64,000 nt of DNA, taken from positions 392,409-456,408 of the forward strand of contig CP066697.1 in the NCBI GenBank assembly GCA_016432625.1, read 5' to 3'. The notes beneath the pieces are model-generated. The model did not search any database. It was not told where the DNA came from and saw nothing but the letters and a program-made list of their open reading frames with translations. Origin of the DNA: Candidatus Berkelbacteria bacterium (GTDB taxonomy: Bacteria; Patescibacteriota; UBA1384; 2-12-FULL-50-11). This document shows, piece after piece, positions 39,780-58,728 of the stretch. A program made the translations under genes and the position numbers. Each line of letters begins with the position of its first letter. Position 1 is the first letter of the stretch.

Positions 39780-40262
39780 GGCTTTCTTCCTTCGGGAAGG
39801 GCGCAGCACCTGACAGTTCGGATCGATCATAGGCAAGGAGTGCAGCTCTCTCTTGACCCGTACTCGCCTCGAAAGAGATGGAGATTAGGTTGGCAACTGC
39901 ACACTTCCCTTTATGGCGGTTTAGCGCTTCAAGCGCTCTCGACGGTAGCTTCGGATTGGCCGACTGCTGTTTCAGTTAGGGCAGGCGAAAGCTTCCCTTC
40001 AACCGCCCGCTATGGCGCCGTGCTTCTCCTGTTGCGGGAAGGGGCCTCCAAAGGCGCTACCAACGAAACCGCTGCCTCCTGGGCAAACGAAGCCGTTGGA
40101 CTTGAATCGATCATCGATCCGCCGCGTCCGAGTGGGACTGGGCAACCGTCGGCCTGTCCGACACTTAGCCCCTCCCCTCGACGCGGGACCGCTCCCAAGA
40201 CCCTGACGGCCTGGACCCTTCAACCACGAAGAGCCCAACGCCGTCGGGGCTTCTTCATATAA
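39780..40262. ncRNA. GC-rich (~60%) non-coding block, candidate structured RNA (RNase P RNA or tmRNA not confirmed)
   Basis: ~480 nt with only a Pro/Arg-rich spurious ORF. Many GC helices. Weak resemblances to RNase P CR-II/CR-III on the minus strand did not add up to a full model. Confidence 0.25.
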
Positions 40263-44868: not shown

Positions 44869-47838
44869 TTATAATTCGTCAATTGGCTGCAGGCCTGAAT
44901 CAGTTGGTTTAGATGTCGCTTTACTCTCGTTCGTCAGGCCTAGGGTCTCGGCTTGATCCCAGGTTATTAAGCGATCTTGGGCACTTTGTTCGATGTCTCC
45001 CCTACTCCAATCATCGCCGCCAGCTTTTTTCTGCTCGCTCTCCCCTATTTCCTGGGCGATGTGCTTCTCGATAATTGGGGCTGTTTCTTCAGCAATAACG
45101 CCTTCGCGAACAGGCGGAGTAACCACAACGTCCCGCACCTGTTCAACTGGTGAGGGGTCGACGTCGTTTTCAACCTGTCCATCAGGTTCATTTTTTAGCT
45201 CACCGCTGCCAGTGACGGCGTACCAATTGCGACTGAAACGGTCTTTTAGAATCTCAATCTTCGAGCCTTTTGGTAGTGACGGCGTCGTCTCTTGCTCGGG
45301 CTTTTTGGCGACATTAGTTGGTTCTGCGTTAGCAAAACCCTTGTCCTGAGGTGTCACATTACCCGGACCGGCCAACGTCACGGTACTACCTTCCCCGGCC
45401 GCCTTGCCAGCTTCAACCGCGCTCAAGTCAATCGGCGCTGACCACTCGGCGATATAATCTTCAACGTCTGTTTTAGACATACTGAATTGCTCGCGGCTGG
45501 ATTCTACCACCTGGCTCACTACGTCCGTTTTATCCGCCGGCGGCGGTAAAGTGTTGGCGGAAAATGCCGGCGCCGTAACGCCGTCGATCGCCATCTTAAT
45601 ATAGATCTGCCTATTTGGTAGATTAACTAAATCGTTGACGTCAAATACCGGCTCAAACTCACTCTTCATTGCCTCGGCGTCGTTCGATCCGACACGGAAC
45701 GAGACCATTGTTCCGACGTTGCCAAAAACCGCATCGCGCACTGTCTCCGGCATCTGAGCGATATATTGGTTGACCATGACAAGATTGAGGCGATACTTGC
45801 GCGCTTCACTGAGGATTGTGGCGAAAGAATCCGTGGCAAAGTTCTGAAACTCATCAACATACAAATAGAAGTCTCGCCGATCGGCCTCGGCAATACGTGT
45901 TCGTCCCATCGCCGCTAACTGAATCTTTGTTACTAACATCGAACCAAGCAAGGCCGAGTTATCCTCGCCGATTTTTCCGGTCGACAAATCCGCCAGTAAA
46001 ATCTTGCCGTTATTCATGACTTCATCCATACGCATTGTTGATTTCGGTTGACCAACAATATTACGGATGGTTGAGCTTGAGAGAAATTGACCGACTTTAT
46101 TTTGAATCGGCGCAATCGCTTCTTGGCGGAATTTTGGTTCGTATTTTTCGTACTCATTAACAAAGAAGTCGCGAATCACCGGGTCCTTCACTTCATTAAT
46201 AACTAAGCGGCGGTAAGAATTATCCGTTAGGATCCGCATCACGCTAAGTAGCGTCGAGTTGGGATACTCGAGCACTGCGAGAATTGAGTTGCGCAGGATG
46301 TATTCAAGACGCGGCCCCCAAGATTCGCCGAAGATTTTTTTGAAGATACCGACGACGCCGGAAGCGATGACGTTCTTCATTTCTGGGTTGTTGTCGAAGT
46401 TCTCCAGGACGTTAAAGCCGACCGGAAACTCGTGATCAGCCGGGTTAAAGTAAACCACGTCGGGGATTCTATCGGCGGGCAAGAAGGCTAATACGTGATC
46501 AATAAGCTCGCCGTGCGGATCAACAACCGCCACGCCTCGCCCTTCCCGGATATCATCGTAAATCATATTCTCGATAAATGTGGATTTTCCTGTACCCGTT
46601 TTACCGATAATGTAAGCATGCAGCCTCCGGTCATGTCGTTTAATGCCGAATTTTGTGATGTTATTACGGAAATTAGTCTGGGCAAGCACTGTTAAGTCGT
46701 CGGCTGGCACGCTACCGAGAACAGGCAAGTTAGAGGGCGGTTCCCCTTTCTTCGCTCCAGCCCAAGCAATGGTTGGCGTCGATACAGTTTCAGAAGGAAA
46801 GTGATAAAGCGTTGCGAGCTCCGTAATGTTGAGAATAATGTCCCTATCCCCCATCGCCCGGTGTTTAAATAGGTCCAGGACGCTGCGGTCGGTAACCATG
46901 TCTTTAACGATGAAGGCGTTTAGATTGAGCGTATTGAACTGCTTATAGGCCCCGACGACTTGTTCTAGCTTGGCTTTAGCAACATGTTCTTCACTAGCCG
47001 CGGCAAGAATACGGACATTAGCCTCGAACCCAAGCTTGGTGATTTTTTCCTCAATCGCTTTTATCGCCTGCTGCTCTGGCCCGCCGAGTTCGTTGTCCTT
47101 CTTGTCTTCCTTCTTTTCCTCCCCGCCCCCCTCGGGCGAGATGATTTGCTTAAAGAAGCCGACAAATAATTCTTTGCTTTCATTTACGAGTAGCTCAGTG
47201 ACACCCTTTGGTTTTTTAGGTGGTTCTTTGAGGTTCTTCACTTCATCACGCCCTAAGTCCTGCCAGTCATCATCAGCAGGACGAACAATGGTTTGGATCC
47301 AAACTTCTTCATCACCCGTTAAGCTGCTTAAGACTCCCGTGGTCGTAGCGAGCGGATCAACTTCGAAGTTAAGAAACGTTTTAATTGGGAAAGCTGTCGG
47401 CCGCTTTAAAGTTAACTCAGTGGCAACGAACCGCTTCTCTTCCGGCAGAGTAACGTAGTCTTCCTCCGGCCCGATTTCTTTGATTTCAATATTAGGGTAT
47501 TGGGCAAAGATCTGACTAACAACAAAATCTTTTAGATTAGCCGGAACGTAGACAAAGAATGTAATGCTCTGCCGGCGCGAGACAATCTCCAGGCTGATAC
47601 GTGGTTGCTCGGTAGCACCCTCCCTAAAAATTCCGTGTAGGGCAGCAAAGAATTGCTCTGCCGCCTCAGGCTTAGCAGTGTTATTCTTAGGTACCGAAAG
47701 TGAGAGTAAGGTATATTCATCGAGACCGCCAGGCCAGCTTTCCTTGGAGCTGCTGCCTTTACTTGTCCGTTTCCAAAGCCATACGGCTCCAACAATCAGT
47801 AAAGCGCTGAAGACAAGATTAATCACCACAAACGTCAT
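44869..47838 (-). CDS. Membrane-anchored P-loop ATPase, TraG/VirD4/TrwB coupling-protein-like (paralog 1, 989 aa) with a long acidic disordered tail
   Basis: N-terminal TM. Walker A HAYIIGKTGTGKST. VAVVDPHGELID and VVYFNPADHEFPVGFNVLE match the coupling-protein DPKGE / fnP..NPL pattern. Walker B FYLYVDEFQNF. Confidence 0.55.
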   Translation of the reverse strand: MTFVVINLVFSALLIVGAVWLWKRTSKGSSSKESWPGGLDEYTLLSLSVPKNNTAKPEAAEQFFAALHGIFREGATEQPRISLEIVSRRQSITFFVYVPANLKDFVVSQIFAQYPNIEIKEIGPEEDYVTLPEEKRFVATELTLKRPTAFPIKTFLNFEVDPLATTTGVLSSLTGDEEVWIQTIVRPADDDWQDLGRDEVKNLKEPPKKPKGVTELLVNESKELFVGFFKQIISPEGGGEEKKEDKKDNELGGPEQQAIKAIEEKITKLGFEANVRILAAASEEHVAKAKLEQVVGAYKQFNTLNLNAFIVKDMVTDRSVLDLFKHRAMGDRDIILNITELATLYHFPSETVSTPTIAWAGAKKGEPPSNLPVLGSVPADDLTVLAQTNFRNNITKFGIKRHDRRLHAYIIGKTGTGKSTFIENMIYDDIREGRGVAVVDPHGELIDHVLAFLPADRIPDVVYFNPADHEFPVGFNVLENFDNNPEMKNVIASGVVGIFKKIFGESWGPRLEYILRNSILAVLEYPNSTLLSVMRILTDNSYRRLVINEVKDPVIRDFFVNEYEKYEPKFRQEAIAPIQNKVGQFLSSSTIRNIVGQPKSTMRMDEVMNNGKILLADLSTGKIGEDNSALLGSMLVTKIQLAAMGRTRIAEADRRDFYLYVDEFQNFATDSFATILSEARKYRLNLVMVNQYIAQMPETVRDAVFGNVGTMVSFRVGSNDAEAMKSEFEPVFDVNDLVNLPNRQIYIKMAIDGVTAPAFSANTLPPPADKTDVVSQVVESSREQFSMSKTDVEDYIAEWSAPIDLSAVEAGKAAGEGSTVTLAGPGNVTPQDKGFANAEPTNVAKKPEQETTPSLPKGSKIEILKDRFSRNWYAVTGSGELKNEPDGQVENDVDPSPVEQVRDVVVTPPVREGVIAEETAPIIEKHIAQEIGESEQKKAGGDDWSRGDIEQSAQDRLITWDQAETLGLTNESKATSKPTDSGLQPIDEL

Positions 47839-50258
47839 CGTGTAGAAAGCGCTCTTGAGGCCGTACCCACACTCTGACTTTCAAAAACTACTGGGGATTT
47901 GGCAAAAGTTGAGCGAGTATTATTGCGGATCCAATCGGCCATTTGTTTACTGCCTTCGTTAGGACTTTTGACACCGTTCATACTAAAGGGTTTGGTTGGT
48001 GCCAAATCAACCAAAAGCTTAACATATGCCTGGAAACGATCAAGGTTGGTAAGGTCTTCTGCGGTGACTCCGGGCAATTCATGCGACAGGAACTCAGCAT
48101 CATCGGCACCAATTCGATAGCTAATCAGGGTGCCGACGTTCCCGATCACAGCGTTACGAATTTGCTCAGTTAGTTGGGCGAAATATTGGTTGGTAATATT
48201 TAAATTAAGTCGGTATTTGCGAGCCTCGGCCAGAATAGTTGCAAATGAGTCGGTCGTGAAATTTTGAAATTCATCAACGTATAAATAGAAGTCTCGTCTT
48301 TGATCCTCTGGCACATCAGCTCTACCGAATGCCGCAACCTGTAATTTAGAGACCAAAATCAGCCCCAGTAAATTAGAGTTAATTTCACCAATTTTGCCCT
48401 TGGCTAAGTTCACAAATAGAATCTTGCCAGAGTCCATCATCTCGCGGAAATTAAATGACGACTCTTTCTGGCCGATGATGTTGCGCATCAGTTCGTTCGT
48501 CATGAACCGACCGAATTTGGAGATAAAGTAGTTATACATTTCCGACTTATGAAAATCGGCCGTTTTGGCTAGTTGCTGTTCCCAGAATGCTTTGACGACA
48601 GGGTCGGTCACTTGCGAGACAGCGTAACTTCGAAAGGCGTCGTCGGTAAACAGCCTAGGAATATCGATTAGTGTTCCGCCGCCGGGCAGGCTCATGACGG
48701 TTAAGGCGGCGTTACGTGCCCAGTGTTCCCATTGTGGTCCAACGATTCCGGTGCGATTTGGGTCGAATAATTTGTAGAAGATTTCGATTACTTCTTGAAT
48801 TAGAAAATCCTTTTCTTCGGGACGTGAGTATTCAAGTAGGTTTAGGCCTAACGGATAAGACGTATCAGACGGGTCGAAAAGTACAACGTCTTTCGCTCGT
48901 TCGGTCGGTACTTTTTTGATCAGTTGCTCAATCGCATCACCCAGCGGGTCAATAAAACATAACCCCTTACCTTGGTACATATCCTGCTCAATCATACTTT
49001 CAAACAAGGTTGTTTTACCGACGCCGGTTTTACCAATCATAAACACGTGGCGCCGCCGATCGTCTTCTTTCAAATGAACCATAGTGGTCGCCCCGCGATA
49101 GTTCGTTTCACCAATTACCACGCCATCACTGGGCAAATCTGCTGGCGGCGGCAGACTTCGCGAGAGTTGCCATTTGACCCCGGGCGTTTCGAGCGCTCTC
49201 GTTGGCAGATGGAAGATACTGGAGAGCTCCTCGGCGTTTAGAATCATTTTTGGAGCGTTGGAAAACATTCGAAATAAATAATCGCGTCCCAGACGATTCG
49301 GCGCGATAATGCGGTACTTCAAGGAGTTAAATTCCGCCGCATGGAATTGGGAGAATGCAGCAATTATGACTTTTAGATTGCTCTCAGCAGACGATTCGTC
49401 CTCAGCGGTAGTCAGCACTCGCAGTATCGCTTCGAAGCCAACCTTAGCGCCCTTTTCCTGCAAGGCCTTAATTAGCTCTTCTTGCTGAGATGAGAGGTGG
49501 ATCTTCTCCCTAACGTCGCCTTGCGGTTTAGCCTGATCGAAGACTAAGCCAATCGCACGGCCGATGCGACTTCGCCCAACAAGATGAGCCCGATTCTGTA
49601 GAACTTCCTGTCCAGCCATGTGTGTATGGTGACGCCAGCGCTCGTTAGTTGGGCGGATCAGGAGTTGGATGCTTGCCGTTTCATCACTCTTCATTTTCGT
49701 TAGGGCGTTTGTCAGCGCCGAAAGCGGATCGGTTTCTAGGTATTGATAGGTCTTTAGCGGCAAGACGAAACTTTTTGACTGTTCAAATACGGCACCCGCC
49801 ACGGCTTTAGCGTGTGGCCCAAAAAGCTTAGGCGGCTTGTTCGAACTTACTTCAGCGTGCGGAAAATAGCTGTGCAGTTGTCGCTCGACTATATTCTTTA
49901 TTCGCTTTGGGCAAACGATCGAAAAATGGATAACACCACCGACCGCTGTTACTTCAAAAGAGATATGCGCCGGTGTACTGAAAAGCCAGTCAACAAAATT
50001 ACGTTGATGGATGATTGTGGTCAACGACGAGTAAAACTGCTCCATTGGGGCGATAAGATCTTTGAAATCTTTTACTGGCTCGCCAGAAACAGGTTGAGTG
50101 GCATCTCGCGGCAACGAGACAGTTAGGCACACCAAAGAATTAACATCTCTAACCATCTCTTGTTTTTGGGCACGTAATAGGTAGAACATCAAGCCAATCG
50201 GTAGCCCGACAACAATAATTCCGATTGCCCAGACCAAGTAGTTACCTAGGAACTCCAT
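47835..50258 (-). CDS. Membrane-anchored P-loop ATPase, TraG/VirD4/TrwB coupling-protein-like (paralog 2, ~807 aa)
   Basis: Same architecture: HVFMIGKTGVGKTT, LCFIDPLGDAIEQ, VVLFDPSDTSYPLGLNLLE, FYLYVDEFQNF. ATGA overlap with paralog 1. Start taken at MEFLGNYLVWAIG. Confidence 0.55.
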   Translation of the reverse strand: MEFLGNYLVWAIGIIVVGLPIGLMFYLLRAQKQEMVRDVNSLVCLTVSLPRDATQPVSGEPVKDFKDLIAPMEQFYSSLTTIIHQRNFVDWLFSTPAHISFEVTAVGGVIHFSIVCPKRIKNIVERQLHSYFPHAEVSSNKPPKLFGPHAKAVAGAVFEQSKSFVLPLKTYQYLETDPLSALTNALTKMKSDETASIQLLIRPTNERWRHHTHMAGQEVLQNRAHLVGRSRIGRAIGLVFDQAKPQGDVREKIHLSSQQEELIKALQEKGAKVGFEAILRVLTTAEDESSAESNLKVIIAAFSQFHAAEFNSLKYRIIAPNRLGRDYLFRMFSNAPKMILNAEELSSIFHLPTRALETPGVKWQLSRSLPPPADLPSDGVVIGETNYRGATTMVHLKEDDRRRHVFMIGKTGVGKTTLFESMIEQDMYQGKGLCFIDPLGDAIEQLIKKVPTERAKDVVLFDPSDTSYPLGLNLLEYSRPEEKDFLIQEVIEIFYKLFDPNRTGIVGPQWEHWARNAALTVMSLPGGGTLIDIPRLFTDDAFRSYAVSQVTDPVVKAFWEQQLAKTADFHKSEMYNYFISKFGRFMTNELMRNIIGQKESSFNFREMMDSGKILFVNLAKGKIGEINSNLLGLILVSKLQVAAFGRADVPEDQRRDFYLYVDEFQNFTTDSFATILAEARKYRLNLNITNQYFAQLTEQIRNAVIGNVGTLISYRIGADDAEFLSHELPGVTAEDLTNLDRFQAYVKLLVDLAPTKPFSMNGVKSPNEGSKQMADWIRNNTRSTFAKSPVVFESQSVGTASRALSTR

Positions 50259-50259
50259 A

Positions 50260-50553
50260 TTAGGCACCGGTATCCATGACCTGCCCAACGCGATCCTCTA
50301 AATCAGACAGGCTTGCTACTGCAATATTGGCGTCGATTTCGTTTTCCAAAAATGGGGTAACAGCCTCAGTATTAACCGTCGGCTCAGGTCCGTCCTTATA
50401 TTCCACACTCCTGGGAGCAGGTCCAACTTCAGCCGGTACGTAACCACTAACAGCTTCAGGCGGCTTTGCTTCGGACACAACAGGCTTAACCTCACCAGGT
50501 GAGAATGATTCATTAGACGTTCTTAACTCAAAGCGTTCCCCCTCGCGCTGCAT
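50260..50553 (-). CDS. Small acidic Pro/Glu-rich protein (97 aa), first gene of the ATPase operon
   Basis: Low-complexity sequence. Abuts the ATPase start. Confidence 0.35.
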   Translation of the reverse strand: MQREGERFELRTSNESFSPGEVKPVVSEAKPPEAVSGYVPAEVGPAPRSVEYKDGPEPTVNTEAVTPFLENEIDANIAVASLSDLEDRVGQVMDTGA

Positions 50554-50578: not shown

Positions 50579-51712
50579 CTAACGCGGGGCGTTTAAGACG
50601 CTCTGAAACTCCACATCGAAGTTTCCTTCCTTGATGCAAGATCGTACACGCTCCATTAACCGTAGAATTACCCATAAGTTGTGATAACTTAACGCCCTGC
50701 CTGCCAGAGTCTCGCCGGTGGCATAAAGGTGGCGAAGGTAGTCGCGAGTAAAGGTCTTACACATTCGACAGCCGCACTCAGTGTCCAACGGGCTGCGGTC
50801 GTTGCGGAAGGATGAGTTCATAATATTAAATTGCCCTAGTGCTTCGGTCCAAAAAACGCCGTGACGCGCCAGACGGGTTGGCAAGACGCAATCAAACATG
50901 TCGAAGCCACGCGCCACCATGCGGATTATATCCTCTGGATAACCAATGCCCATCAAGTAATGCGGTCGAGACGGATCTAAATGGTTGGCGACGTAATCAA
51001 CTGCTTTGTTAATTTTATCTTTGCCTTCACTGGCTATCGCCACACCGCCAACTGCAATGCCATCGAACGGCAGGTCTTGGATCTCTCTCGTAGATTGCAA
51101 CCGCAAGTCCTCAAACAGGCCACCCTGAATTATGCCGAATAATCCCCTCCCCGACTCCCCCATTTTTTGCTGTTGCCAATAGTCTGTCGAGCGCCTGGCC
51201 CAGTTGGTGGTCCGTATAACTGCTGACTGAACGCGCTTTTCGGTGGCCTCAATTGGCGGACAGTCATCAAGCGGCATGACTATATCGCTGCCCAGTTTTC
51301 TTTGAATGTCTAACACTGACTCCGGTGTAAACTCATGTTTGCCACCATCAAGATGCGAGTAAAAACGCACTCCATCGTTTGTAGTCTTGGCGGTTTTTGC
51401 CCTGGTTGCCCCTAAGGAATAGGCTTGATACCCACCTGAGTCGGTCAAAACCGGCCCGTTCCACTGAGTCCATTTGGCAAAACCTCCAGCCTCGGCTATA
51501 TGCCCAGCCCCGGGACGCAAGTGCAGATGGTAAGTATTCCCCAAAATGATTTCAGCTCCCAACTCTTGAACCTCCCAAGGGAATAAAGTTTTAACCGCGC
51601 CCGAAGTGGCAACGGGCATAAAGACAGGGGTCTGAATAATACCGTGTGGCGTTACGAGCTCGCCAGTTCGGGCAAGGGAATTTTTCTGTTTATGTAAAAC
51701 TTTAAAAAACAT
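50579..51712 (-). CDS. tgt: Queuine tRNA-ribosyltransferase (tRNA-guanine transglycosylase)
   Basis: TPVFMPVATSGAVK, LGNTYHL, Zn site CGCRMCKTFTRDYLRHL. Confidence 0.9.
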   Translation of the reverse strand: MFFKVLHKQKNSLARTGELVTPHGIIQTPVFMPVATSGAVKTLFPWEVQELGAEIILGNTYHLHLRPGAGHIAEAGGFAKWTQWNGPVLTDSGGYQAYSLGATRAKTAKTTNDGVRFYSHLDGGKHEFTPESVLDIQRKLGSDIVMPLDDCPPIEATEKRVQSAVIRTTNWARRSTDYWQQQKMGESGRGLFGIIQGGLFEDLRLQSTREIQDLPFDGIAVGGVAIASEGKDKINKAVDYVANHLDPSRPHYLMGIGYPEDIIRMVARGFDMFDCVLPTRLARHGVFWTEALGQFNIMNSSFRNDRSPLDTECGCRMCKTFTRDYLRHLYATGETLAGRALSYHNLWVILRLMERVRSCIKEGNFDVEFQSVLNAPR

Positions 51713-52384: not shown

Positions 52385-52477
52385 ATATAGATTTTACAGG
52401 AGAAGTCACGCTTTAGGGAGGGTGAAAGCAACAGGGCCTGTCTTGCGACAGGCCCTGGGGCACGGATGTTGGAAGCG

Positions 52478-52984
52478 CTACTTGCGTAGGAAAATGCGAT
52501 TGCCGATGGCCCCACGGCCCGACGGCAGAACAATCTCCACTTCGCAGTACTTGCCCCACATGGTTTTACCGACCATGGGGTAGCGGAGCTGGCATTGCGA
52601 CCGCAGGACACGACTCACAAACAGAGCGGTCACGACTAGGTTGCTGATCATCTCATCCTGCCACCACTCAGCGTAGTACGACTCGATGGTTGTTGAGACC
52701 TCGATGTTATCAAACACACCTTCGTAATGCTTGACGACATCTTTCATGGCGAACTTGCCCGCTTCGACTACTGTGTCGAAACTGACAGCAAAGCCATAGT
52801 CAGCCCGTACCACCTCGGCAACAAGTTGCCGGGCAGTGTTTAGTCCGGTCTCGACCAGCGCGCCCAACGGCGCGTTACCCTCTACTGGAGCTTTGGCGTA
52901 GTTCAGCGCTGCCGTCTGAGTCTGGCGATTAGCCCAGACGGCATTAAGGTGCTCGTCTGGCACCGATCGACATGATTCTTCAGA
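52478..52984 (-). CDS. Hypothetical protein (~168 aa), divergent from the FabH-like gene
   Basis: Clean ORF, no motif, GC-rich. Confidence 0.35.
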   Translation of the reverse strand, partial: SEESCRSVPDEHLNAVWANRQTQTAALNYAKAPVEGNAPLGALVETGLNTARQLVAEVVRADYGFAVSFDTVVEAGKFAMKDVVKHYEGVFDNIEVSTTIESYYAEWWQDEMISNLVVTALFVSRVLRSQCQLRYPMVGKTMWGKYCEVEIVLPSGRGAIGNRIFLRK

Positions 52985-53157
52985 CATTTCCACATTTCAC
53001 CAATAAGTGCGAGATTTCGCGGGTTTTACGTCGCGATGAACGAATTTTACGCTGATATTGAAGGTTAATCAATGAGGTAGTCCCGTATATTTTACTCAGT
53101 AAATATGAGAGAATGCGCCTACAGTTGCAGCGCAACTTACATTAGGAGGTTAGGCCA

Positions 53158-54231
53158 ATGACTGGCACGACAACAATCATCGCCACAGGCGAAGCCACTC
53201 CAAGGCCAGCCGAGATGGTGTGTAATCTCGAAGTAATGGATATCCTCGCCGAAAACGGCGTGGAGATCCCGCCGAAACGGCGGGAAAACTACGACAAGGA
53301 TTTCCATGGGATAAAATCGCGGTGGTTAACTCCACCTTGCGTTTCGTCCTACGACTTGGCTCTTGAGGCCGGTATCAACGCCTTCCGTCAAGCCGCTAAC
53401 GTAGATCCTGACTTCAGCCCTTCAAAGGTGATGGCTGTCCACAGCGGTGGCTCATCACCTCACTCGCTCTACTCAGGGGTCTCGAATAAGCTCCAATACA
53501 GCTTGTTCGTTCCGCCCTGCTTCGCTGAAGCTCGAGACGATTCACTGGCATGCACGAGTGCTGTTGACGCCTTGTTGCTGCTTGACTCCCGTTTGCGGCA
53601 TCTTGCTGTCATGGAGGAAATTGAGGAACCGATCTATGGTTGCGTCGTAATTGGCGAAGCTATTGGGACGGTTTCCAACCAGCCGGACAGCACCAACTAT
53701 ATACTTTGGGGTTGTGGCGGCTCGGCACTCGTCGTCAAACACGATCCTAGGGATGGGCGGAAGGTCGGTATCAGGCGTTCGCGTAACATCTCCGACGGTC
53801 AGTTTGCGCATTGGTTTGAAGCCGTGGGCATCGGTACCGATCCGAGATACCTAGGCGTTCGACCCAACGCTACGATGGGCGAAAAAGGTATGTACGGCCG
53901 CGAGGTTCAAGAGTACATCATGGACGTCATCGCACCGTATTGCGCCGAGTTTGTCGCGAAATGCGGTGTTGACCCCGCCAGCTCCACGAGTCATCTCTGT
54001 GGGCACAACCCAACGTACGACGGCGCGAAGTCGTTCGGCATCAAAGCTGGCTTTGCATACGAGCGCATCCATAGTGTCGCCGATGATCGTGCCAACACGT
54101 CGTCGACCTCGCCGTTTCTCAACTACCACACAGCTCGCACGCTTGGACTGATTAAAAGGGGGGATAACGTCTTCCTGGTTGGTTACGGCGCCGGTCCTTC
54201 GGCTGCGTTCCTCTACTACATCGAGCCCTGA
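53158..54231 (+). CDS. FabH-like (KAS III/thiolase-fold) condensing enzyme, divergent
   Basis: Candidate Cys-His-Asn triad: SLACTSAVDAL (Cys), HLCGHN (His), ANTSSTSPFL (the Asn of GNTSSAS). Confidence 0.55.
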   Translation: MTGTTTIIATGEATPRPAEMVCNLEVMDILAENGVEIPPKRRENYDKDFHGIKSRWLTPPCVSSYDLALEAGINAFRQAANVDPDFSPSKVMAVHSGGSSPHSLYSGVSNKLQYSLFVPPCFAEARDDSLACTSAVDALLLLDSRLRHLAVMEEIEEPIYGCVVIGEAIGTVSNQPDSTNYILWGCGGSALVVKHDPRDGRKVGIRRSRNISDGQFAHWFEAVGIGTDPRYLGVRPNATMGEKGMYGREVQEYIMDVIAPYCAEFVAKCGVDPASSTSHLCGHNPTYDGAKSFGIKAGFAYERIHSVADDRANTSSTSPFLNYHTARTLGLIKRGDNVFLVGYGAGPSAAFLYYIEP

Positions 54232-54337
54232 GATGGGCTCCCTCGCCAACACCCCCTAGCTCTAGCAGTTAGGGGGTGTTCCTGTAAACTTGATTAGACC
54301 GTGCACCTTTCAGTTGCGTGGCAGACAGGAGCAACTC

Positions 54338-55207
54338 ATGGAAAACCCCTTCATCATTCTCTGGGAGTGGACCTTGGGTTGGCTTAAAAGGCTCGCCCTC
54401 TACCGCTTCCCGGACCGAGTCGATTTCGCTTTCGGAATGTTCACTACATTCATCGTCCTACAACTGATCCTCGGCCGGTATGGCCTTTTCTACCTGCTCA
54501 GCTGGTGGCCAGACGCCCAACGGGTTCAGTTCGAGAACACCCCTCTTGCCTACTTGGGCTGCTTCCTCGCCTTCCATATGGGCGTGGCCTTCTTCGAGTT
54601 TGGATTCCACCGGTACATTCTTCATAAGGTGTTCTGGAGATTTCTCCAAGGATTAGCCCGGAAGCATCGCAAGCATCACGGCTTAACCTACGGTGACGCC
54701 TACCCGATCACCGAGCCAAAGCAGATCGAATCCTCGGCGTTCCCCGCGTGGACTTTGGCGGCCTTCTGGGGATTCTTCGCCGTCGTGGCGTTAATCCCCT
54801 TGCAGCTCATCTTCCCCTCCCTGCCGTGGCTCATCAGCGGCGGGGCGGCGGTTGCGTGGTCGTACTGGCTTTACGAGGTGAAGCACGCCGTAGAGCACCT
54901 CGACTACGACAGGTGGTGGAAGTGGTGCGTTGAGCGATCCGATCGCCTTGGTCAAGTGGCAAAAAAAGTCTATTGGTACCACCGGATACATCACTTTATC
55001 CCTGAGATAAATGAAGCAATCGGCGGATTTATGGGCTTTGACTTCCCCGGATGGGTGTTCCGAACCAGCTTCGTTCCTGAACACATTCCGGCGGTTGGGG
55101 CCAAGTTTGACCCTAGCTCGTTCAAGTACCCGCCTCCACGTTGGCCGGTTAACGTGCTCGACAAGGTAGTTGACGCTCGTGAAAAACAGCTTCAAGGAAG
55201 AGCATGA
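54338..55207 (+). CDS. Fatty-acid hydroxylase/sterol-desaturase-superfamily integral membrane protein
   Basis: Histidine boxes HRYILH, HRKHH, HAVEH, HRIHH. AGGAG RBS before the ATG at 54338. Confidence 0.65.
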   Translation: MENPFIILWEWTLGWLKRLALYRFPDRVDFAFGMFTTFIVLQLILGRYGLFYLLSWWPDAQRVQFENTPLAYLGCFLAFHMGVAFFEFGFHRYILHKVFWRFLQGLARKHRKHHGLTYGDAYPITEPKQIESSAFPAWTLAAFWGFFAVVALIPLQLIFPSLPWLISGGAAVAWSYWLYEVKHAVEHLDYDRWWKWCVERSDRLGQVAKKVYWYHRIHHFIPEINEAIGGFMGFDFPGWVFRTSFVPEHIPAVGAKFDPSSFKYPPPRWPVNVLDKVVDAREKQLQGRA

Positions 55208-55253: not shown

Positions 55254-55280
55254 CACGACCCCGCCCACAAGCGGGGTCGT
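55254..55280 (+). terminator. Terminator after the hydroxylase gene
   Basis: CGACCCCGCccacaaGCGGGGTCG. Confidence 0.5.
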
Positions 55281-55656
55281 ACCATATTACAAAAGAATAA
55301 ACGCTAAAATGTGTATACTAATAATGAGTCCTTTCGGGGGCTCGCAGAGAGACGGTCTGTCTTCTCTGGGTTAGGGATCGTGTCCGCGTTCGTGATCGGT
55401 CCGTTGTCCGTTTTGATAAGTTAGAGCGTACCTGGCAACAATACGTGACCGTGTTCGTCGATAGTTGCTCGTTTGTTCGTTAAGTTTTGGGATTGTTGCT
55501 TGAGCCCAGCTACAACCCTGTCGTGGGGCAAATGGGTTCCCGTTTTGCTAGCGGAGTTTGCGCTTCGTAATGAACCTTGTTGATCACAAGTGTTCAGCAC
55601 AACCTTGGTACATACACGACAAAGAAGTCCTCGACACGCAAATGTCGAGGCTTCTT

Positions 55657-56049
55657 TTAATCCTTCAGGATTTTGGGGATTTCCGATTGCGGTACTTTAC
55701 GAACTTCAATCTTGGCCTTTCCCTGTGAACTAGCCTTCATCAAACGGTGCAGACCATCCAAAATCAGCCAACGCCCCCGCCAGTGCATGATGTCAATTGG
55801 ATGCGATAGATCAGCCTTCTGCGTCCGGTCGTACTCGCCTTGGTATTTTTTAGGGTTTTTCAACACTTCATCGGGCTTCAGGTTGTAATATCCATCCGGC
55901 TTCGTCCACAGAAATGGAACGTCGAAATGCCAAACTAACTCGTCTATATCCATTTCTTCGACTGGAAGATCGAGTGCCCAGACTTTCTTTTCGTCCCAGT
56001 CAAAATCAAACCCAACTTCTTTAATAATTTTCGGTGGTTGCCTGCTCAT
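55657..56049 (-). CDS. ParB/sulfiredoxin-fold (ParB-N-like) domain protein, hypothetical
   Basis: RWLILDGLHRLMKA resembles the ParB-N DGxHR motif. Confidence 0.35.
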   Translation of the reverse strand: MSRQPPKIIKEVGFDFDWDEKKVWALDLPVEEMDIDELVWHFDVPFLWTKPDGYYNLKPDEVLKNPKKYQGEYDRTQKADLSHPIDIMHWRGRWLILDGLHRLMKASSQGKAKIEVRKVPQSEIPKILKD

Positions 56050-56507
56050 CAGTCACCCACAACGCCGCCCATAAAACGGGCTTCGTAAACTAAACCGTCC
56101 TTGAAATGTATCTGCTCCATACCATCAAAGCGCTCAACACTTCCTTCGGTTTTGTTACTGTATCGCCAGTCACCTTCTACTAACAATCCCGGTCCCCTGA
56201 AAGGTCTATCTTCGGGCATCTTCATTAGAGCTCGTTTCAGGAATCCATAAAGCTCGCCAACATTGACGTCGCTATCGAGCGGGTAGCCGTAGTACGTCAT
56301 TATCCAAATCGGCACGTTTTTTAGCGATACGATATCGCGGCCGCCAAATTTCACTCCGCCGACCCAACTGTCGTGGAATCTCCAGTCGCCACGTTCGTAG
56401 ATAATCGTTTCCGAGTTGTCAGAATTTTTTAGAATCTTTGTGGATTCATTTCCATAACCATTCTTATTGGCCTCAAGCAAAAATACCCGGAGTTCTTCGA
56501 TGTTCAT
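56049..56507 (-). CDS. Hypothetical protein (152 aa)
   Basis: Operonic with ATGA-type junctions. No motif. Confidence 0.35.
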   Translation of the reverse strand: MNIEELRVFLLEANKNGYGNESTKILKNSDNSETIIYERGDWRFHDSWVGGVKFGGRDIVSLKNVPIWIMTYYGYPLDSDVNVGELYGFLKRALMKMPEDRPFRGPGLLVEGDWRYSNKTEGSVERFDGMEQIHFKDGLVYEARFMGGVVGD

Positions 56508-57043
56508 AATGACTCAAAATTTATCGCGTTTTTTACACTCTCTGTTTCTTCCGGCGTCAGTAGCCTCGTTATTTTCGCTACTTCCTCGGGGTCTGGCAAT
56601 CCAATCCCAGAACCGTTTTCACGGGTATATAACGTAACGTGTGTTGGCTGGTTGAGAAAATCCATCCCGAGTGCTTGACGCATACCGTCGAAAAATTCCT
56701 GCAAGTTTTTTGCTTGGCACATCACGACGACAGTCTTCTTGTCCCGCTCTTCAGCCAATCGGAACTCGTCTTTGAACTGTTCAATTGAAATCGGAAACTG
56801 TTTTAACAATCGACTAGCTTCTTCTAAAATCGTCTGCTCGGCGTCCTCTTCCGAAACACCTTTAAGCTGAGCCATTTCTGGCGCGTACTTTTTGACACAA
56901 AAAATACTCATATGGAATTCCGATTTTTTAACTAATGTTTCGCCATCAATTTCTAATGTCGACGCAATTAGAGGCGTCTCATAAGGCAAGCCCACATAGC
57001 CCCCTGCATAACGGTATCCAGCAAGAAGGTTCTCGCTAGCCAT
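56504..57043 (-). CDS. 2H phosphoesterase superfamily protein (LigT/2'-5' RNA ligase-like)
   Basis: Two H-x-T/S-x motifs: FHMSIF and THVTLY. Confidence 0.5.
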   Translation of the reverse strand: MASENLLAGYRYAGGYVGLPYETPLIASTLEIDGETLVKKSEFHMSIFCVKKYAPEMAQLKGVSEEDAEQTILEEASRLLKQFPISIEQFKDEFRLAEERDKKTVVVMCQAKNLQEFFDGMRQALGMDFLNQPTHVTLYTRENGSGIGLPDPEEVAKITRLLTPEETESVKNAINFESL

Positions 57044-57572
57044 TTAAGTAACCTTTTAGATTCGTAGCCGCAATATTGCGCATACTAAAAGAATTCTTCT
57101 CCTCTTGACCCATTTCGGCGAATGTTTTGTCACGGCCATCTGGACAAAAAATTGGGTCCCAGCCAAAACCTGTCTCGCCGCGCGGCGCAACGATTGTCCC
57201 TTCAATCACTCCTTCAAAATACTCAATCTTGCCACCTTCCGAAGCGTAGCCGATAATCGTTTTGGCTTGAGCTTTGGCGTTGCCGAGTTTCGTAGCAATT
57301 TCGGCCAAACCGTCATTGCCAACAGTTTTCAAAAACCATTTAATCAAAGGTCCGGGTAAACCCTTCAAACAATCGAGATAAAGCGAAGTATCTTCGACAA
57401 TAAATCCGGCTTTTTTATGTTTTAGAGCTTCTTCTAATTTTGCTTTAATTATTTCGTGCGCATCGATGTTTTGAATCTCCGGCAGGTCAATGTCCATTTG
57501 TTCAACGTCGGGAATAATAGATTTAATTTCTGCAAATTTATTGGCGCTGCCTGTAATGAAAAATAAGGCCAT
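57036..57572 (-). CDS. rdgB: Non-canonical purine NTP pyrophosphatase (RdgB/HAM1)
   Basis: FFITGSANKFAE, EDTSL, GFGWDPIF. Start set at MALFFITGS. Confidence 0.75.
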   Translation of the reverse strand: MALFFITGSANKFAEIKSIIPDVEQMDIDLPEIQNIDAHEIIKAKLEEALKHKKAGFIVEDTSLYLDCLKGLPGPLIKWFLKTVGNDGLAEIATKLGNAKAQAKTIIGYASEGGKIEYFEGVIEGTIVAPRGETGFGWDPIFCPDGRDKTFAEMGQEEKNSFSMRNIAATNLKGYLNG

Positions 57573-57991
57573 CAAAACTCCGTTAGCTCTATAAGCGTTT
57601 CGGGTGTAGTGCTGTAGTCGCGGTACCTCAACCATTCGGGGGTAACTTTAAAATATCTGGTTTCAGGAATATCGAAGAACTTACTTGCTCCCGGGTTCTT
57701 TTTGACAAAAATATTTTTCAGCTCCTCCATCTCTTCACCATCAACTTCCGTCGCTACCCCTTCGTACTGGACCGTAGCGTCCTCCCAGCCAATGACCACC
57801 GCAACGTTAGGATTGGCCTTGAGGTTTGGGTATTTGCGATAGGTTGAGAACGTATCAAAGATCAGCTCGAAGTTGTCAGTTTCGGCAAACTCAATCGCGG
57901 CAGCTTCGGGTTTGCCTGTCTTTGACGAAGTAGCCAAGACACAAACTTGATGACGCTTTATAAACTCCAGAATCTCTATTTTTGTTTTCAT
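57572..57991 (-). CDS. Pyridoxamine-5'-phosphate-oxidase-like FMN-binding split-barrel protein
   Basis: CVLATSSKTGKPEAAAIEF...VAVVIGWED is the PNPOx-fold pattern. Confidence 0.6.
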   Translation of the reverse strand: MKTKIEILEFIKRHQVCVLATSSKTGKPEAAAIEFAETDNFELIFDTFSTYRKYPNLKANPNVAVVIGWEDATVQYEGVATEVDGEEMEELKNIFVKKNPGASKFFDIPETRYFKVTPEWLRYRDYSTTPETLIELTEF

Positions 57992-58005
57992 TTTCCAAAT
58001 TTATT

Positions 58006-58728
58006 TCACGAAGCAAGCTCTTTGAGCTGGGTAGGTATCCCAGACTTATTACCAATTTTTTGAGATAGGTTAATCATTATTTTTTGCAGCACATCGCTTA
58101 CCATCACCAGTTCCTCTTTACTAATAACTACCTGGTCACTATGAGCGGCTGCAATACGTTTTGCATATATCTCCCGCAGTTTCTCTTGGTTGAAGACTTT
58201 ATATTTATCCTGAATATCTTGTGTGAATAGTGAGAAATCAAAAAATTCTTTTTGGCTTATACCAAGCACGTGCTCGTAGTCTTGCAACCTACTCTTCAAG
58301 TCTTTTTTTGAAAACACCTTTAGATAATTTGTTACGAGTGAGAGGAGAGGTTCGGTTGGAGAAGAATGTCTTAATGCAACCTCCATACTGTCCTCCAGGA
58401 ATGCATCGAATATGCCGCACATCATTACTAGGCTGTAATTATAAACCCATGAGAGGTAGCGAGCAGCTTTATTAAGGTTTGTAAAATATTGCTCTTCTAT
58501 CTTTGCGTACATCCTATCTATATCATCCTCAGTAGGAGGCTTCAGAAACATTTTTGGGTTAGAGAGGATCTCTTTTGTCGTCTCTCGCAGCTCGTCGGTC
58601 ATTTCTTTAGCTATGCACATTTGCGCGTGTGGGGTTAACGCATGATTTTCTACGCGATTGACAAACTGGTAACATTCTACAATCCTTTTAATGTAATCTA
58701 ATTCTTTAAGCATAGGGTCGCAAGACAA
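58006..58728 (-). CDS. Hypothetical protein (240 aa), AT-rich, possible HEPN-like Rx4H motif
   Basis: No clear family. KRIAAAHSD contains R-x4-H. Lower GC than its neighbours. Confidence 0.3.
   Translation of the reverse strand: MSCDPMLKELDYIKRIVECYQFVNRVENHALTPHAQMCIAKEMTDELRETTKEILSNPKMFLKPPTEDDIDRMYAKIEEQYFTNLNKAARYLSWVYNYSLVMMCGIFDAFLEDSMEVALRHSSPTEPLLSLVTNYLKVFSKKDLKSRLQDYEHVLGISQKEFFDFSLFTQDIQDKYKVFNQEKLREIYAKRIAAAHSDQVVISKEELVMVSDVLQKIMINLSQKIGNKSGIPTQLKELAS

What the first reader, a model, noticed from the sequence alone, without database searches (positions are those of the whole stretch)
52478..55207. GC-rich three-gene cluster: FabH-like condensing enzyme plus membrane fatty-acid hydroxylase/desaturase-family protein plus unknown
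Visibly higher GC than the flanks, and bracketed by terminators and structured spacers. A divergent KAS III/OleA-like thiolase-fold enzyme sits next to a four-His-box di-iron membrane oxygenase. The combination suggests synthesis or modification of an unusual lipid or polyketide-like molecule (for example head-to-head condensation followed by hydroxylation). Such organisms are generally thought to scavenge host lipids, and plsX is also present at 14791.
Basis: partly seen in the sequence, partly recalled or inferred. Interest (0 to 1): 0.55.

Follow-up and report, generated by a model that had tools for sequence, protein, structure and literature searches.

The report
Orphan FabH-like enzyme beside lipid hydroxylase
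A tiny-genome groundwater bacterium (Candidatus Berkelbacteria), of a group thought unable to make fatty acids, carries a very divergent FabH-type condensing enzyme next to a membrane lipid-hydroxylase-like protein. The three genes are not one operon, and what the two enzymes act on is still unknown.

Summary
Positions 52478-55207 form the most GC-rich 2.7-kb stretch of the window (54.7% against 49.4%). They hold three real genes, each followed by its own strong hairpin.

- **Gene 2 (53158-54231, +)** has a KAS III (FabH) fold with an intact Cys132-His283-Asn313 triad. It scores 47 bits against a FabH cut-off of 249. By alignment it has lost the FabH residues that hold CoA and dock ACP. Its clade has about ten known sequences, and every one whose neighbourhood could be read lies in a CPR-type context.
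- **Gene 1 (52478-52987, -)** is an orphan that belongs with the opposite-strand tgt unit.

It is not a three-gene cluster. A terminator-like hairpin follows the FabH-like gene in all four genomes examined, and related genomes carry either enzyme without the other at the same site. A shared inverted repeat just upstream of both start codons hints at co-regulation. OleA-type chemistry and recent horizontal transfer are not supported. Function remains inferred, and interest is moderate.

The parts
52432..52457 (-). Terminator-like hairpin (11-bp GC-rich stem) 21 nt after the stop of the 169-aa gene
   Evidence: -25.9 kcal/mol, z -5.6.
52478..52987 (-). 169-aa orphan protein gene (HZB70_00420). 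It has no recognisable domain and belongs with the leftward histidine-phosphatase/tgt unit, not with the two enzyme genes
   Evidence: annotated, with one homologue (P0028) at 66% identity; in L010 the homologue lies 12 bp upstream of His_Phos_1 and TGT on the same strand; no meaningful Pfam, NCBIfam, PHROG, PDB or PADLOC match.
53085..53157 (+). Conserved leader or promoter region of the FabH-like gene. It includes the inverted repeat AGTTGC-AGC-GCAACT (53123-53137) and the Shine-Dalgarno sequence AGGAGG
   Evidence: 77-78% DNA identity to L010 and L001 over 95-169 nt, although the proteins are about 57% identical. for the repeat.
53158..54231 (+). 357-aa divergent KAS III (FabH-superfamily) condensing enzyme, HZB70_00415, with triad Cys132/His283/Asn313
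54248..54280 (+). Strong hairpin (14-nt arms) 17 nt after the FabH-like stop codon. It is terminator-like but has no U-tract
   Evidence: -27.8 kcal/mol, z -3.3. Equivalent hairpins, with U-tracts, follow the orthologues in L001, L011 and L012.
54312..54336 (+). Second copy of the AGTTGC...GCAACT inverted repeat. It flanks the Shine-Dalgarno sequence and ends 1 nt before the hydroxylase-like start codon
   Evidence: only two matches in the window against 0.06 expected. TTTCAGTTGCGTG is also upstream of the L001 orthologue.
54338..55207 (+). 289-aa four-TM, ten-His membrane di-metal protein of the fatty-acid hydroxylase superfamily (NCBIfam NF047868 'TrhA extension/companion' family), HZB70_00410
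55255..55280 (+). Terminator-like hairpin (10-bp stem) 48 nt after the hydroxylase-like stop codon, conserved in L001

Best explanation
**Overall reading.** The region holds two separately transcribed, possibly co-regulated accessory lipid-enzyme genes, plus an unrelated orphan gene. They sit in a variable slot of a Berkelbacteria chromosome, between the conserved tgt/histidine-phosphatase genes and the rplL-rplJ operon.

**Gene A (53158-54231)** is a strongly diverged KAS III-fold Claisen-condensing enzyme.
- Shown: the fold and the Cys-His-Asn triad.
- Inferred: an acyl thioester acylates Cys132. His283 and Asn313 then activate (probably decarboxylate) a malonyl-type extender, giving a beta-keto product.
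- By alignment, the FabH residues that position CoA and dock ACP are replaced: Trp32 to Gly, Arg151 to Ser, Asn247 to Thr, Arg249 to Asp.
- It therefore most likely does not prime a type II fatty-acid synthase. It is more likely an 'orphan' KAS III-like enzyme acting on another thioester pair, as PqsD, BioZ and DarB do.

**Gene B (54338-55207)** is a four-helix, ten-histidine di-metal membrane enzyme with an Scs7p/FA2H-like architecture.
- Inferred: it hydroxylates or desaturates an acyl chain of a membrane lipid, probably one scavenged from a host, using O2 and an unidentified electron donor.

**Are they linked?** I put the chance that A and B act on the same molecule at about 35-40%.

**The 169-aa gene** is not part of this.
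For: **Gene A**
- AlphaFold model with pLDDT 81. Foldseek gives TM 0.67-0.85 to FabH, BioZ, PqsD and ZhuH.
- The triad is invariant in nine family members and aligns to E. coli FabH C112/H244/N274. The reference sequence was verified against PDB entry 1HN9.
- It falls below every curated KAS III family cut-off, as do its ten nearest relatives tested.
- Only 32 of 1.84 billion cluster representatives score E<1e-30 against the clade profile. There is a clear break between this clade and canonical FabH.
- Entrance and docking residues are replaced. Their roles are described in PMC10054515, and the role of Arg249 in ACP docking is from my own knowledge (Zhang et al. 2001, JBC).
- tblastn finds no AcpP or FabG in the window.
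- CPR bacteria are reported to lack fatty-acid synthesis (PMC10221324).

**Gene B**
- Ten invariant His in four motifs.
- Model with pLDDT 86 and four long hydrophobic helices.
- All 17 homologues hit NF047868.

**Linkage**
- A and B are adjacent in the window, L001 and L011.
- The repeat AGTTGC..GCAACT occurs only twice in 64 kb (0.06 expected), both times just upstream of the two start codons.
- The same palindrome followed by TTACAT or TTATAT (TTTACAT in L003) precedes gene A in L001 and L010, and precedes gene B in L003, which lacks gene A at this site.
Against: - No biochemical data exist for either family, so substrates are unknown.
- The residue replacements rest on an alignment at about 20% identity. 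The region around Trp32 and Arg36 lies next to an insertion. No coordinates were inspected.
- Linkage is weak. A terminator-like hairpin separates A from B in the window, and terminator hairpins follow gene A in L001, L011 and L012.
- Gene A occurs without B (L012, the P0006 contig) and B without A (L003, L004/L005, and non-CPR loci L006-L009).
- The adjacency could simply be inherited synteny within one lineage.
- No redox partner for gene B lies nearby, and Berkelbacteria are generally regarded as anaerobic fermenters (my own knowledge), which sits awkwardly with an O2-dependent enzyme.
- The spacing of the shared repeat varies, with 3-5 nt between the conserved arms AGTTG and CAACT in the leaders of the FabH-like gene (window, L001, L010) and of the L003 hydroxylase-like gene, against 13 nt between the 6-nt arms upstream of the window's hydroxylase-like gene. 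It does not form a significantly stable RNA structure.
- The rest of the genome (about 705 kb) could not be searched for acpP or other fab genes.
Confidence: 0.6

Rival explanations
1. Gene A is a genuine, fast-evolving FabH that initiates a complete type II fatty-acid synthase encoded elsewhere in this Berkelbacteria genome. Gene B modifies the resulting acyl chains.
For: - True FabHs are the closest solved structures by both profile and fold.
- The triad is intact.
- A PlsX-like gene is in the window.
- Most of the genome (about 92%) was not available to check.
Against: - It scores 47 and 32 bits against FabH cut-offs of 249 and 292.
- Arg249 is replaced by Asp, and Trp32, Arg151 and Asn247 are not conserved.
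- Only Pfam's C-terminal domain is detected.
- tblastn finds no acpP or fabG in 64 kb, and the genes flanking the plsX-like gene are not fab genes.
- The plsX-like gene itself is far below its equivalog cut-off.
- The gene is absent from this site in related genomes (L003, L004), which is unusual for an essential initiator.
- CPR bacteria are reported to lack fatty-acid synthesis (PMC10221324).
Confidence: 0.12
2. An OleA-like, head-to-head (non-decarboxylative) condensation of two acyl chains is followed by hydroxylation by gene B, giving an unusual long-chain lipid or polyketide-like product from a dedicated cluster.
For: - The two genes are adjacent in three genomes.
- They share an upstream repeat.
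- OleA also has a KAS III fold with a Cys-His-Asn triad, and it appears among the fold hits (ranks 40 and 48).
Against: - OleA structures match only the C-terminal ~95 residues at 35-41 bits, below FabH and BioZ.
- No NCBIfam OleA, type III PKS or DarB model scores at E<0.01 for the window protein.
- No oleB, oleC or oleD-like genes, ACP or other tailoring genes lie in the neighbourhood.
- A terminator-like hairpin separates the two genes, and each occurs alone in relatives.
Confidence: 0.08
3. The two genes are functionally unrelated neighbours. Gene B is a stand-alone membrane-lipid modifier found widely in bacteria. Gene A is an acyltransferase or small-molecule condensing enzyme that happens to occupy the same variable chromosomal slot.
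For: - Each gene occurs alone at the same locus in relatives.
- Gene B's family occurs in non-CPR bacteria with no KAS III neighbour.
- The sister group of gene A is instead coupled to a TetR regulator.
- Gene A appears monocistronic: a terminator-like hairpin directly follows it in all four genomes.
Against: - The AGTTGC..GCAACT repeat occurs only upstream of these two genes in the window.
- The leader of gene B in L003 is homologous to the leader of gene A elsewhere.
- The two genes are adjacent in three genomes whose orthologues are only about 41-57% identical.
Confidence: 0.3
4. The region is a recently acquired, GC-rich horizontally transferred island.
For: - It is the highest-GC 2.7-kb stretch in the window, with raised GC3 in all three genes.
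- The nearest non-CPR relatives of gene A come from loci of 65-69% GC.
- The slot between the histidine-phosphatase gene and rplL varies in content among relatives.
Against: - The same genes occupy the same site in several genomes whose orthologues share only 40-57% identity.
- Gene A is 4-7 points GC-richer than its locus in L001, L011 and L012 as well. The raised GC is therefore an old, intrinsic property.
- The upstream leader is conserved among lineages.
- No integrase, tRNA or direct-repeat boundary was seen.
Confidence: 0.07

Closest known systems
FabH (beta-ketoacyl-ACP synthase III; E. coli 1HN9, Burkholderia 4DFE)
   Same: - It has the same thiolase-type KAS III fold (TM 0.73-0.84).
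- It shares the Cys-His-Asn triad, the Ser after Asn, and the Gly-rich oxyanion loop.
- It is of similar length.
   Different: - It is only 17-23% identical and sits far below curated family cut-offs.
- It has an N-terminal insertion of about 14 residues.
- The CoA and ACP contact residues are replaced (W32G, R151S, N247T, R249D).
- It has no fab-gene context.
- It is found in a lineage reported to lack fatty-acid synthesis.
- It is dispensable in close relatives.
Orphan KAS III-like enzymes acting outside FAS II (BioZ, PqsD, ZhuH, DarB)
   Same: - They share the fold and a Cys-based acyl-enzyme mechanism.
- They are stand-alone genes that use non-standard thioester substrates.
- They rank just below FabH in the fold search.
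   Different: - There is no specific sequence affinity to any of them (BioZ 44 bits, PqsD 28 bits).
- None of their pathway partners are nearby.
OleA (Xanthomonas campestris, 3ROW/4KTM)
   Same: It has a KAS III fold and a Cys-His-Asn triad.
   Different: - Only the C-terminal ~95 residues match the clade profile.
- No oleBCD genes are present.
- It ranks below FabH in both sequence and fold searches.
Scs7p / FA2H (sphingolipid fatty-acid 2-hydroxylase; PDB 4ZR0/4ZR1)
   Same: - It has four transmembrane helices and a cap carrying four His motifs that form a di-metal centre.
   Different: - It is 17-18% identical.
- It has no cytochrome b5 domain.
- The Pfam FA_hydroxylase score is below threshold (18 against 31).
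- It is bacterial, and its substrate is unknown.
NCBIfam NF047868 'TrhA extension/companion domain-containing protein'
   Same: All 17 homologues match this model (best E 1.9e-83). The window protein matches over 239 of its residues.
   Different: - The window protein scores 155, below the 200 cut-off. It and its L001 orthologue lack a loop of about 25 residues after the second His box.
- No TrhA/hemolysin-III (PF03006) gene is fused or adjacent, either here or in any of the eight loci examined.
- I found no experimental characterisation of the family. A full-text search for TrhA, hemolysin III and PAQR returned 10 papers, and I queried two of them for specific terms.

Membership tests
FabH / beta-ketoacyl-ACP synthase III (TIGR00747, NF006829) | KAS III thiolase-type fold | tested here: met
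   AlphaFold model with pLDDT 81. Foldseek against the PDB gives TM 0.73-0.84 to FabH structures, with E about 1e-20.
FabH / beta-ketoacyl-ACP synthase III (TIGR00747, NF006829) | Catalytic triad Cys112-His244-Asn274 (E. coli numbering) | tested here: met
   C132, H283 and N313 are invariant in nine homologues and aligned to the E. coli residues.
FabH / beta-ketoacyl-ACP synthase III (TIGR00747, NF006829) | Score above the curated family cut-off | tested here: not met
   46.9 bits against a cut-off of 249 (NF006829), and 32.0 against 292 (TIGR00747). Pfam detects only ACP_syn_III_C, not the ACP_syn_III N-terminal domain.
FabH / beta-ketoacyl-ACP synthase III (TIGR00747, NF006829) | Basic entrance residues that position CoA and dock ACP (Trp32, Arg36, Arg151, Asn247, Arg249) | tested here: not met
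   The aligned residues are Gly34, Pro38, Ser178, Thr286 and Asp288. The Arg249, Asn247 and Arg151 positions are aligned without nearby gaps. The Trp32 and Arg36 positions lie next to an insertion and are less certain.
FabH / beta-ketoacyl-ACP synthase III (TIGR00747, NF006829) | Genomic context or co-occurrence with acpP, fabD, fabG, fabF | tested here: inconclusive
   None within the 64-kb window.
FabH / beta-ketoacyl-ACP synthase III (TIGR00747, NF006829) | Acetyl-CoA:malonyl-ACP condensing activity | not testable with these tools
   Requires an enzyme assay or complementation.
OleA (head-to-head acyl-CoA condensing thiolase) | Closer to OleA than to FabH in sequence or fold | tested here: not met
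   The clade profile scores 35-41 bits against OleA, over the C-terminal ~95 residues only. FabH scores 55-86 bits over nearly the full length. In the fold search the first OleA hit is at rank 40.
OleA (head-to-head acyl-CoA condensing thiolase) | Neighbouring oleB, oleC and oleD genes | tested here: not met
   The neighbours are His_Phos_1, TGT, an orphan, the hydroxylase-like gene, a phrog_17560-like gene, DUF5680, Ham1 and PNPOx.
OleA (head-to-head acyl-CoA condensing thiolase) | Second-subunit catalytic Glu (Glu117 in X. campestris OleA) | not tested
   No OleA sequence was aligned. The residue at the equivalent FabH Phe87 position is Tyr105, in a low-confidence loop.
Fatty-acid hydroxylase superfamily (Pfam PF04116; Scs7p/FA2H type) | Conserved His motifs forming a di-metal site | tested here: met
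   HX4H (H91, H96), HX2HH (H110, H113, H114), HX3H (H183, H187) and HX2HH (H215, H218, H219) are invariant in 17 sequences. Metal binding itself was not tested.
Fatty-acid hydroxylase superfamily (Pfam PF04116; Scs7p/FA2H type) | Four-TM architecture and fold similarity to a solved member | tested here: met
Fatty-acid hydroxylase superfamily (Pfam PF04116; Scs7p/FA2H type) | Pfam gathering threshold | tested here: not met
   18.3 bits against 31. Three homologues carry a precomputed PF04116 hit.
Fatty-acid hydroxylase superfamily (Pfam PF04116; Scs7p/FA2H type) | Redox partner (fused cytochrome b5 or a neighbouring electron carrier) | tested here: not met
   The 289-aa protein has no extra domain, and no ferredoxin, b5 or reductase lies next to it.
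NCBIfam NF047868 (TrhA extension/companion domain) | HMM score at or above the curated cut-off (200) | tested here: not met
   The window protein scores 155 bits. The best homologue reaches E 1.9e-83. The shortfall coincides with a loop deletion of about 25 residues.
NCBIfam NF047868 (TrhA extension/companion domain) | Fusion to, or adjacency with, a TrhA/hemolysin III (PF03006) protein | tested here: not met
   No PF03006 hit in the neighbours or in the multi-TM proteins of the window, nor in called genes of loci L001, L003-L008 and L011.
Three-gene biosynthetic operon or cluster | Co-directional, co-transcribed genes that co-occur across genomes | tested here: not met
   The 169-aa gene is on the opposite strand and belongs to the tgt unit in L010. 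Terminator hairpins follow the FabH-like gene in four genomes. Either enzyme gene occurs without the other in relatives.

The most novel reading that the evidence does not exclude
A subset of Berkelbacteria-like CPR bacteria, which cannot make fatty acids de novo, may carry a small co-regulated lipid-tailoring module that does not depend on FAS II. In it, a KAS III-derived enzyme that has lost its ACP-docking surface would extend or condense host-derived acyl thioesters. An Scs7p-like di-metal membrane oxygenase would then hydroxylate or desaturate the product. Both genes would be controlled through the shared AGTTGC..GCAACT leader element. This would be direct genetic evidence that episymbiotic CPR bacteria remodel scavenged lipids rather than simply inserting them.
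Probability: 0.15. Interest if true: 0.65.

Novelty: new variant of a known kind. Interest (0 to 1): 0.38.

Why it matters
CPR/Patescibacteria are thought to depend on host lipids, and how they build or adapt their membranes is an open question. A catalytically intact condensing enzyme that no longer looks able to work with ACP or CoA in the FabH manner, sitting beside a lipid-hydroxylase-like membrane enzyme, offers two concrete, clonable candidates for lipid remodelling in these organisms.

The significance is limited for three reasons:
- The genes are accessory, being absent from close relatives.
- They are not an operon.
- Neither family has a known substrate.

The result also gives a first genomic context for the uncharacterised NF047868 family in CPR, and it corrects the idea of a transferred three-gene biosynthetic island.

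Tried and rejected
- **Looking up the window's own FabH-like protein in the contig index.** It is not on record, so the wider genome could not be read.
- **The search for related loci with a nine-sequence alignment.** It failed because no stretch was conserved enough. A five-sequence alignment found only one extra genome, L012, in both the genome and metagenome collections.
- **AlphaFold-database fold search.** The library was not available.
- **Homology searches for the 169-aa protein.** Pfam, NCBIfam, PHROGs, PADLOC and PDB sequences gave nothing meaningful.
- **Rfam search of the spacers.** The only hit was a sub-threshold match (CC0196, 26 bits against a 35 threshold) over the terminator hairpin, and I judged it chance.
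- **The leader palindromes as RNA structures.** Folding gives z about 0, so they are not stable riboswitch-like elements.
- **A link between gene B and queuosine salvage.** A hemolysin III protein next to tgt is a preQ1 transporter in Bifidobacterium (PMC11130926). I rejected this because gene B has no hemolysin III domain and has an Scs7p-like fold.
- **The loop deletion in gene B as a marker of partnership with gene A.** Rejected, because the L011 protein has a FabH-like neighbour and keeps the loop.
- **A neighbour-joining tree of the gene B family.** It mixes CPR and non-CPR sequences without clear structure and has no support values, so I drew no conclusion from it.
- **Literature searches for FabH in CPR.** They returned nothing.


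Full report
**Source and anatomy**

The window comes from a Candidatus Berkelbacteria (CPR/Patescibacteria) metagenome-assembled genome, on a contig of 768,791 bp. The three ORFs are annotated there as hypothetical proteins HZB70_00420, HZB70_00415 and HZB70_00410.

The genes are:
- 52478-52987 (-), 169 aa.
- 53158-54231 (+), 357 aa.
- 54338-55207 (+), 289 aa.

The ATG at 54338 has an AGGAG 7 nt upstream and matches the N-termini of the homologues.

**The observation**

The region is 54.7% GC against 49.4% for the window. Only 0.16% of same-sized windows reach that value. Each gene is about 55.5% GC, with GC3 of 63-69%. The rise is real but modest. The plsX-like gene and two unknown ORFs are as GC-rich or richer.

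Each gene is followed by its own stable GC-rich hairpin, at 52432-52457, 54248-54280 and 55255-55280. Free energies are -25 to -28 kcal/mol and z-scores are -3.3 to -5.6. The hairpins therefore separate the genes rather than just bracketing the region.

**The FabH-like protein**

Database matches are weak:
- Pfam finds only the C-terminal KAS III domain (33 bits).
- NCBIfam FabH models score 47 and 32 bits, against cut-offs of 249 and 292.

The active site is nevertheless intact. Alignment with eight homologues and E. coli FabH shows Cys132, His283 and Asn313 invariant and aligned to Cys112, His244 and Asn274. Ser315, Gly344 and an aromatic residue at the Phe304 position are also kept. My E. 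coli FabH reference sequence is identical to PDB 1HN9.

An AlphaFold model (pLDDT 81) superposes on FabH structures with TM 0.73-0.84 at 17-22% identity. BioZ, PqsD and ZhuH rank slightly lower, and OleA appears from rank 40. A profile of the tight clade matches solved FabHs over nearly their full length (55-86 bits). It matches BioZ at 44 bits, OleA at 35-41 bits over the C-terminal ~95 residues only, and PqsD at 28 bits. No type III PKS or HMG-CoA synthase was seen among the matches.

By alignment, the residues that position CoA and dock ACP in E. coli FabH are replaced in the clade:

| E. coli FabH | Window protein |
|---|---|
| Trp32 | Gly34 |
| Arg36 | Pro38 |
| Arg151 | Ser178 |
| Asn247 | Thr286 |
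| Arg249 | Asp288 |

The roles of Arg36, Asn247 and the arginine-rich entrance are described in PMC10054515. The role of Arg249 in ACP docking is from my own knowledge. The Arg249, Asn247 and Arg151 positions are aligned without nearby gaps, in the first two cases a few residues after the invariant His, so they are reliable. The Trp32 and Arg36 positions lie next to an insertion and are less certain.

**How rare and how distinct the clade is**

A word-indexed search of 5.8 billion proteins found nine relatives. Six of them are 48-59% identical, and the two least similar are 34% identical. An exhaustive HMMER profile search of 1.84 billion cluster representatives found 7,332 hits, but only 32 at E<1e-30.

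Pairwise scores show three tiers:
- A tight clade (P0001-P0007, P0029, P0030) that is 43-59% identical to the window protein. Where a long alignment to E. coli FabH is found, identity is only about 20-25%.
- A loose set of about 25 clusters, roughly equidistant from both.
- Canonical FabHs, 35-54% identical to E. coli FabH.

Ten of the nearest relatives were scanned, and none reaches any curated KAS III family cut-off.

Two members of the loose set (P0008, P0009) lie immediately downstream of a TetR gene whose end meets or overlaps their start, in non-CPR contigs.

**The hydroxylase-like protein**

Pfam FA_hydroxylase scores below threshold (18 against 31). NCBIfam NF047868, 'TrhA extension/companion domain', scores 155 bits against a cut-off of 200. 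All 17 homologues hit NF047868, with a best E of 1.9e-83.

Ten histidines in four motifs are invariant: HX4H, HX2HH, HX3H and HX2HH. The AlphaFold model (pLDDT 86) has four long hydrophobic helices.

The window protein and its L001 orthologue lack a loop of about 25 residues after the second His box. The L011 orthologue keeps it.

No TrhA/hemolysin III domain protein is fused or adjacent, in the window or in the related loci. TrhA itself is tied to membrane fatty-acid homeostasis in E. coli (PMC9017321). The companion domain, however, appears uncharacterised.

**The third gene**

The 169-aa protein has one homologue (66% identity). In L010 that homologue lies 12 bp upstream of the His_Phos_1 and TGT genes on the same strand. 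It is a real gene with no recognisable domain. It belongs with the leftward unit, not with the two enzymes.

**Comparative context**

The order 'two T4SS-coupling-protein-like genes, a small ORF, tgt, His_Phos_1, [variable slot] ... rplL-rplJ' is seen, in whole or in part, in eight related loci.

| Locus | Content of the variable slot |
|---|---|
| Window, L001, L011 | FabH-like then hydroxylase-like |
| L012 (Patescibacteria H51-bin085_1; L013 is the same contig) | FabH-like only; no hydroxylase-like gene within 8 kb |
| P0006 contig | FabH-like only |
| L004/L005 | Hydroxylase-like only |
| L003 | Hydroxylase-like preceded by an S8 peptidase |

L010 ends inside the first codons of a FabH-like gene that is divergent from the 169-aa gene.

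Non-CPR members of the hydroxylase-like family stand alone.

The FabH-like gene is 4-7 GC points above its locus in L001, L011 and L012 as well. The raised GC is therefore an old property of the gene, not a sign of recent transfer.

**Operon or not**

A strong hairpin directly follows the FabH-like stop codon in all four genomes:
- Window: 14-nt arms (one mismatch), no U-tract.
- L001: 12 bp, then UUUU.
- L011: 13 bp, then UUUUUU.
- L012: hairpin, then UCUUUUU.

The FabH-like gene therefore appears to be monocistronic.

There is still a hint of shared control. The inverted repeat AGTTGC...GCAACT occurs only twice in the 64-kb window, against 0.06 expected, and no shuffle out of 100 gave two matches. 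The copy at 53123-53137 ends 20 nt before the FabH-like ATG. The copy at 54312-54336 flanks the Shine-Dalgarno sequence of the hydroxylase-like gene.

About 100 nt upstream of the FabH-like gene is 77-78% identical between the window, L010 and L001, although the proteins are about 57% identical. The same palindrome, there followed by TTTACAT, precedes the hydroxylase-like gene in L003, which has no FabH-like gene at this site.

The pattern was chosen after seeing the first copy, the spacing varies, and the RNA folds are not significantly stable. I therefore treat this as suggestive only.

**Lipid context in the window**

The 'plsX' at 14791-15768 matches Pfam FA_synthesis (70 bits, partial). 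It scores only 81 bits against the PlsX equivalog cut-off of 243, and it is flanked by a LuxR-type gene and a gene that by its sequence looks like a DinB-type polymerase (not scanned), not by fab genes.

tblastn with E. coli AcpP and FabG finds nothing in the window. CPR bacteria are reported to lack fatty-acid synthesis (PMC10221324).

**Interpretation**

Shown:
- Fold, triad and rarity of the FabH-like clade.
- His motifs and the Scs7p-like fold of the membrane protein.
- Gene order and its variability, the hairpins, and the shared repeat.

Inferred:
- The FabH-like enzyme performs Claisen condensation on a non-FAS II thioester pair.
- The membrane protein hydroxylates or desaturates a lipid acyl chain.
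- The two may be co-regulated.

I put about 35-40% on their acting in one pathway. The OleA-type reading, an ordinary FabH, and recent horizontal transfer are each less likely, for the reasons given under the rival explanations.

**Verdict**

The finding is a partly correct description of two interesting but uncharacterised accessory enzymes, not a coherent three-gene biosynthetic cluster. The FabH-like clade is a new variant of a well-known kind. The hydroxylase-like protein is a divergent member of a curated but unstudied family. Interest is moderate.

Noticed in passing
window 53085-53157; L010 45-206 (reverse strand); L001 4930-5022; L003 5940-6000: About 100 nt of non-coding leader upstream of the FabH-like gene is 77-78% identical across genomes whose proteins are about 57% identical. 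It contains a palindrome (arms AGTTG and CAACT separated by 3-5 nt, followed by TTACAT, TTATAT or TTTACAT). The same element precedes the hydroxylase-like gene in L003, which lacks the FabH-like gene at this site. It may be an operator for an unidentified regulator.
   Followed up: partly
window 55281-55656: A gene-free spacer of about 375 bp lies between the hydroxylase-like gene's hairpin and the convergent 130-aa gene. Its last 36 nt (about 55621-55656) overlap the bidirectional terminator hairpin at 55629-55650 and are 92% identical to a sequence downstream of an unrelated S8 peptidase gene in L003 (3851-3886). This suggests a shared or mobile terminator-type element. Rfam found nothing above threshold.
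   Followed up: partly
It is GC-rich (57.5%, GC3 67%). It is flanked by a LuxR-type HTH gene and a gene that by its sequence looks like a DinB-type polymerase (not scanned), not by fab genes.
   Followed up: partly
window 44869-47838 (-) and 47835-50288 (-): Two tandem, overlapping, large genes (989 and 817 aa) resemble T4SS coupling proteins (TrwB, TraG, DUF87 domains). They are conserved upstream of tgt in all related CPR loci, where they are also annotated with DUF8128.
   Followed up: no
window 55657-58728 (-): A low-GC (39-47%) run of small genes lies in the same variable slot. It holds a phrog_17560-like 130-aa protein, DUF5680, a 179-aa unknown, a Ham1/ITPase, a PNPOx-like flavoprotein and a weak HEPN (RiboL-PSP) protein. 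Gene content here differs in every related genome.
   Followed up: no
window 17223-17849 (+) and 39840-40262 (+): These are the two most GC-rich ORFs of the window (57.9% and 60.3%), and neither has a Pfam match. NCBIfam was also tried for the first and found nothing. Whether they are real genes was not checked.
   Followed up: no
L002 5375-7035; L014 2336-4041 (also L015-L017): The nearest non-CPR relatives of the FabH-like protein (34% identity) lie directly downstream of a TetR-family regulator gene whose end meets or overlaps their start. In L014 and L015 they also lie downstream of a short-chain dehydrogenase, and in L014 of a DUF455 protein. This is a different and possibly informative context for the wider family.
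   Followed up: partly
window 50579-51712 (-) and neighbours: tgt is syntenic with a His_Phos_1 phosphatase in all related loci. A hemolysin III protein next to tgt is a preQ1 transporter in Bifidobacterium (PMC11130926). However, the 'TrhA-companion' protein here has no hemolysin III domain, so the resemblance is probably coincidental.
   Followed up: partly
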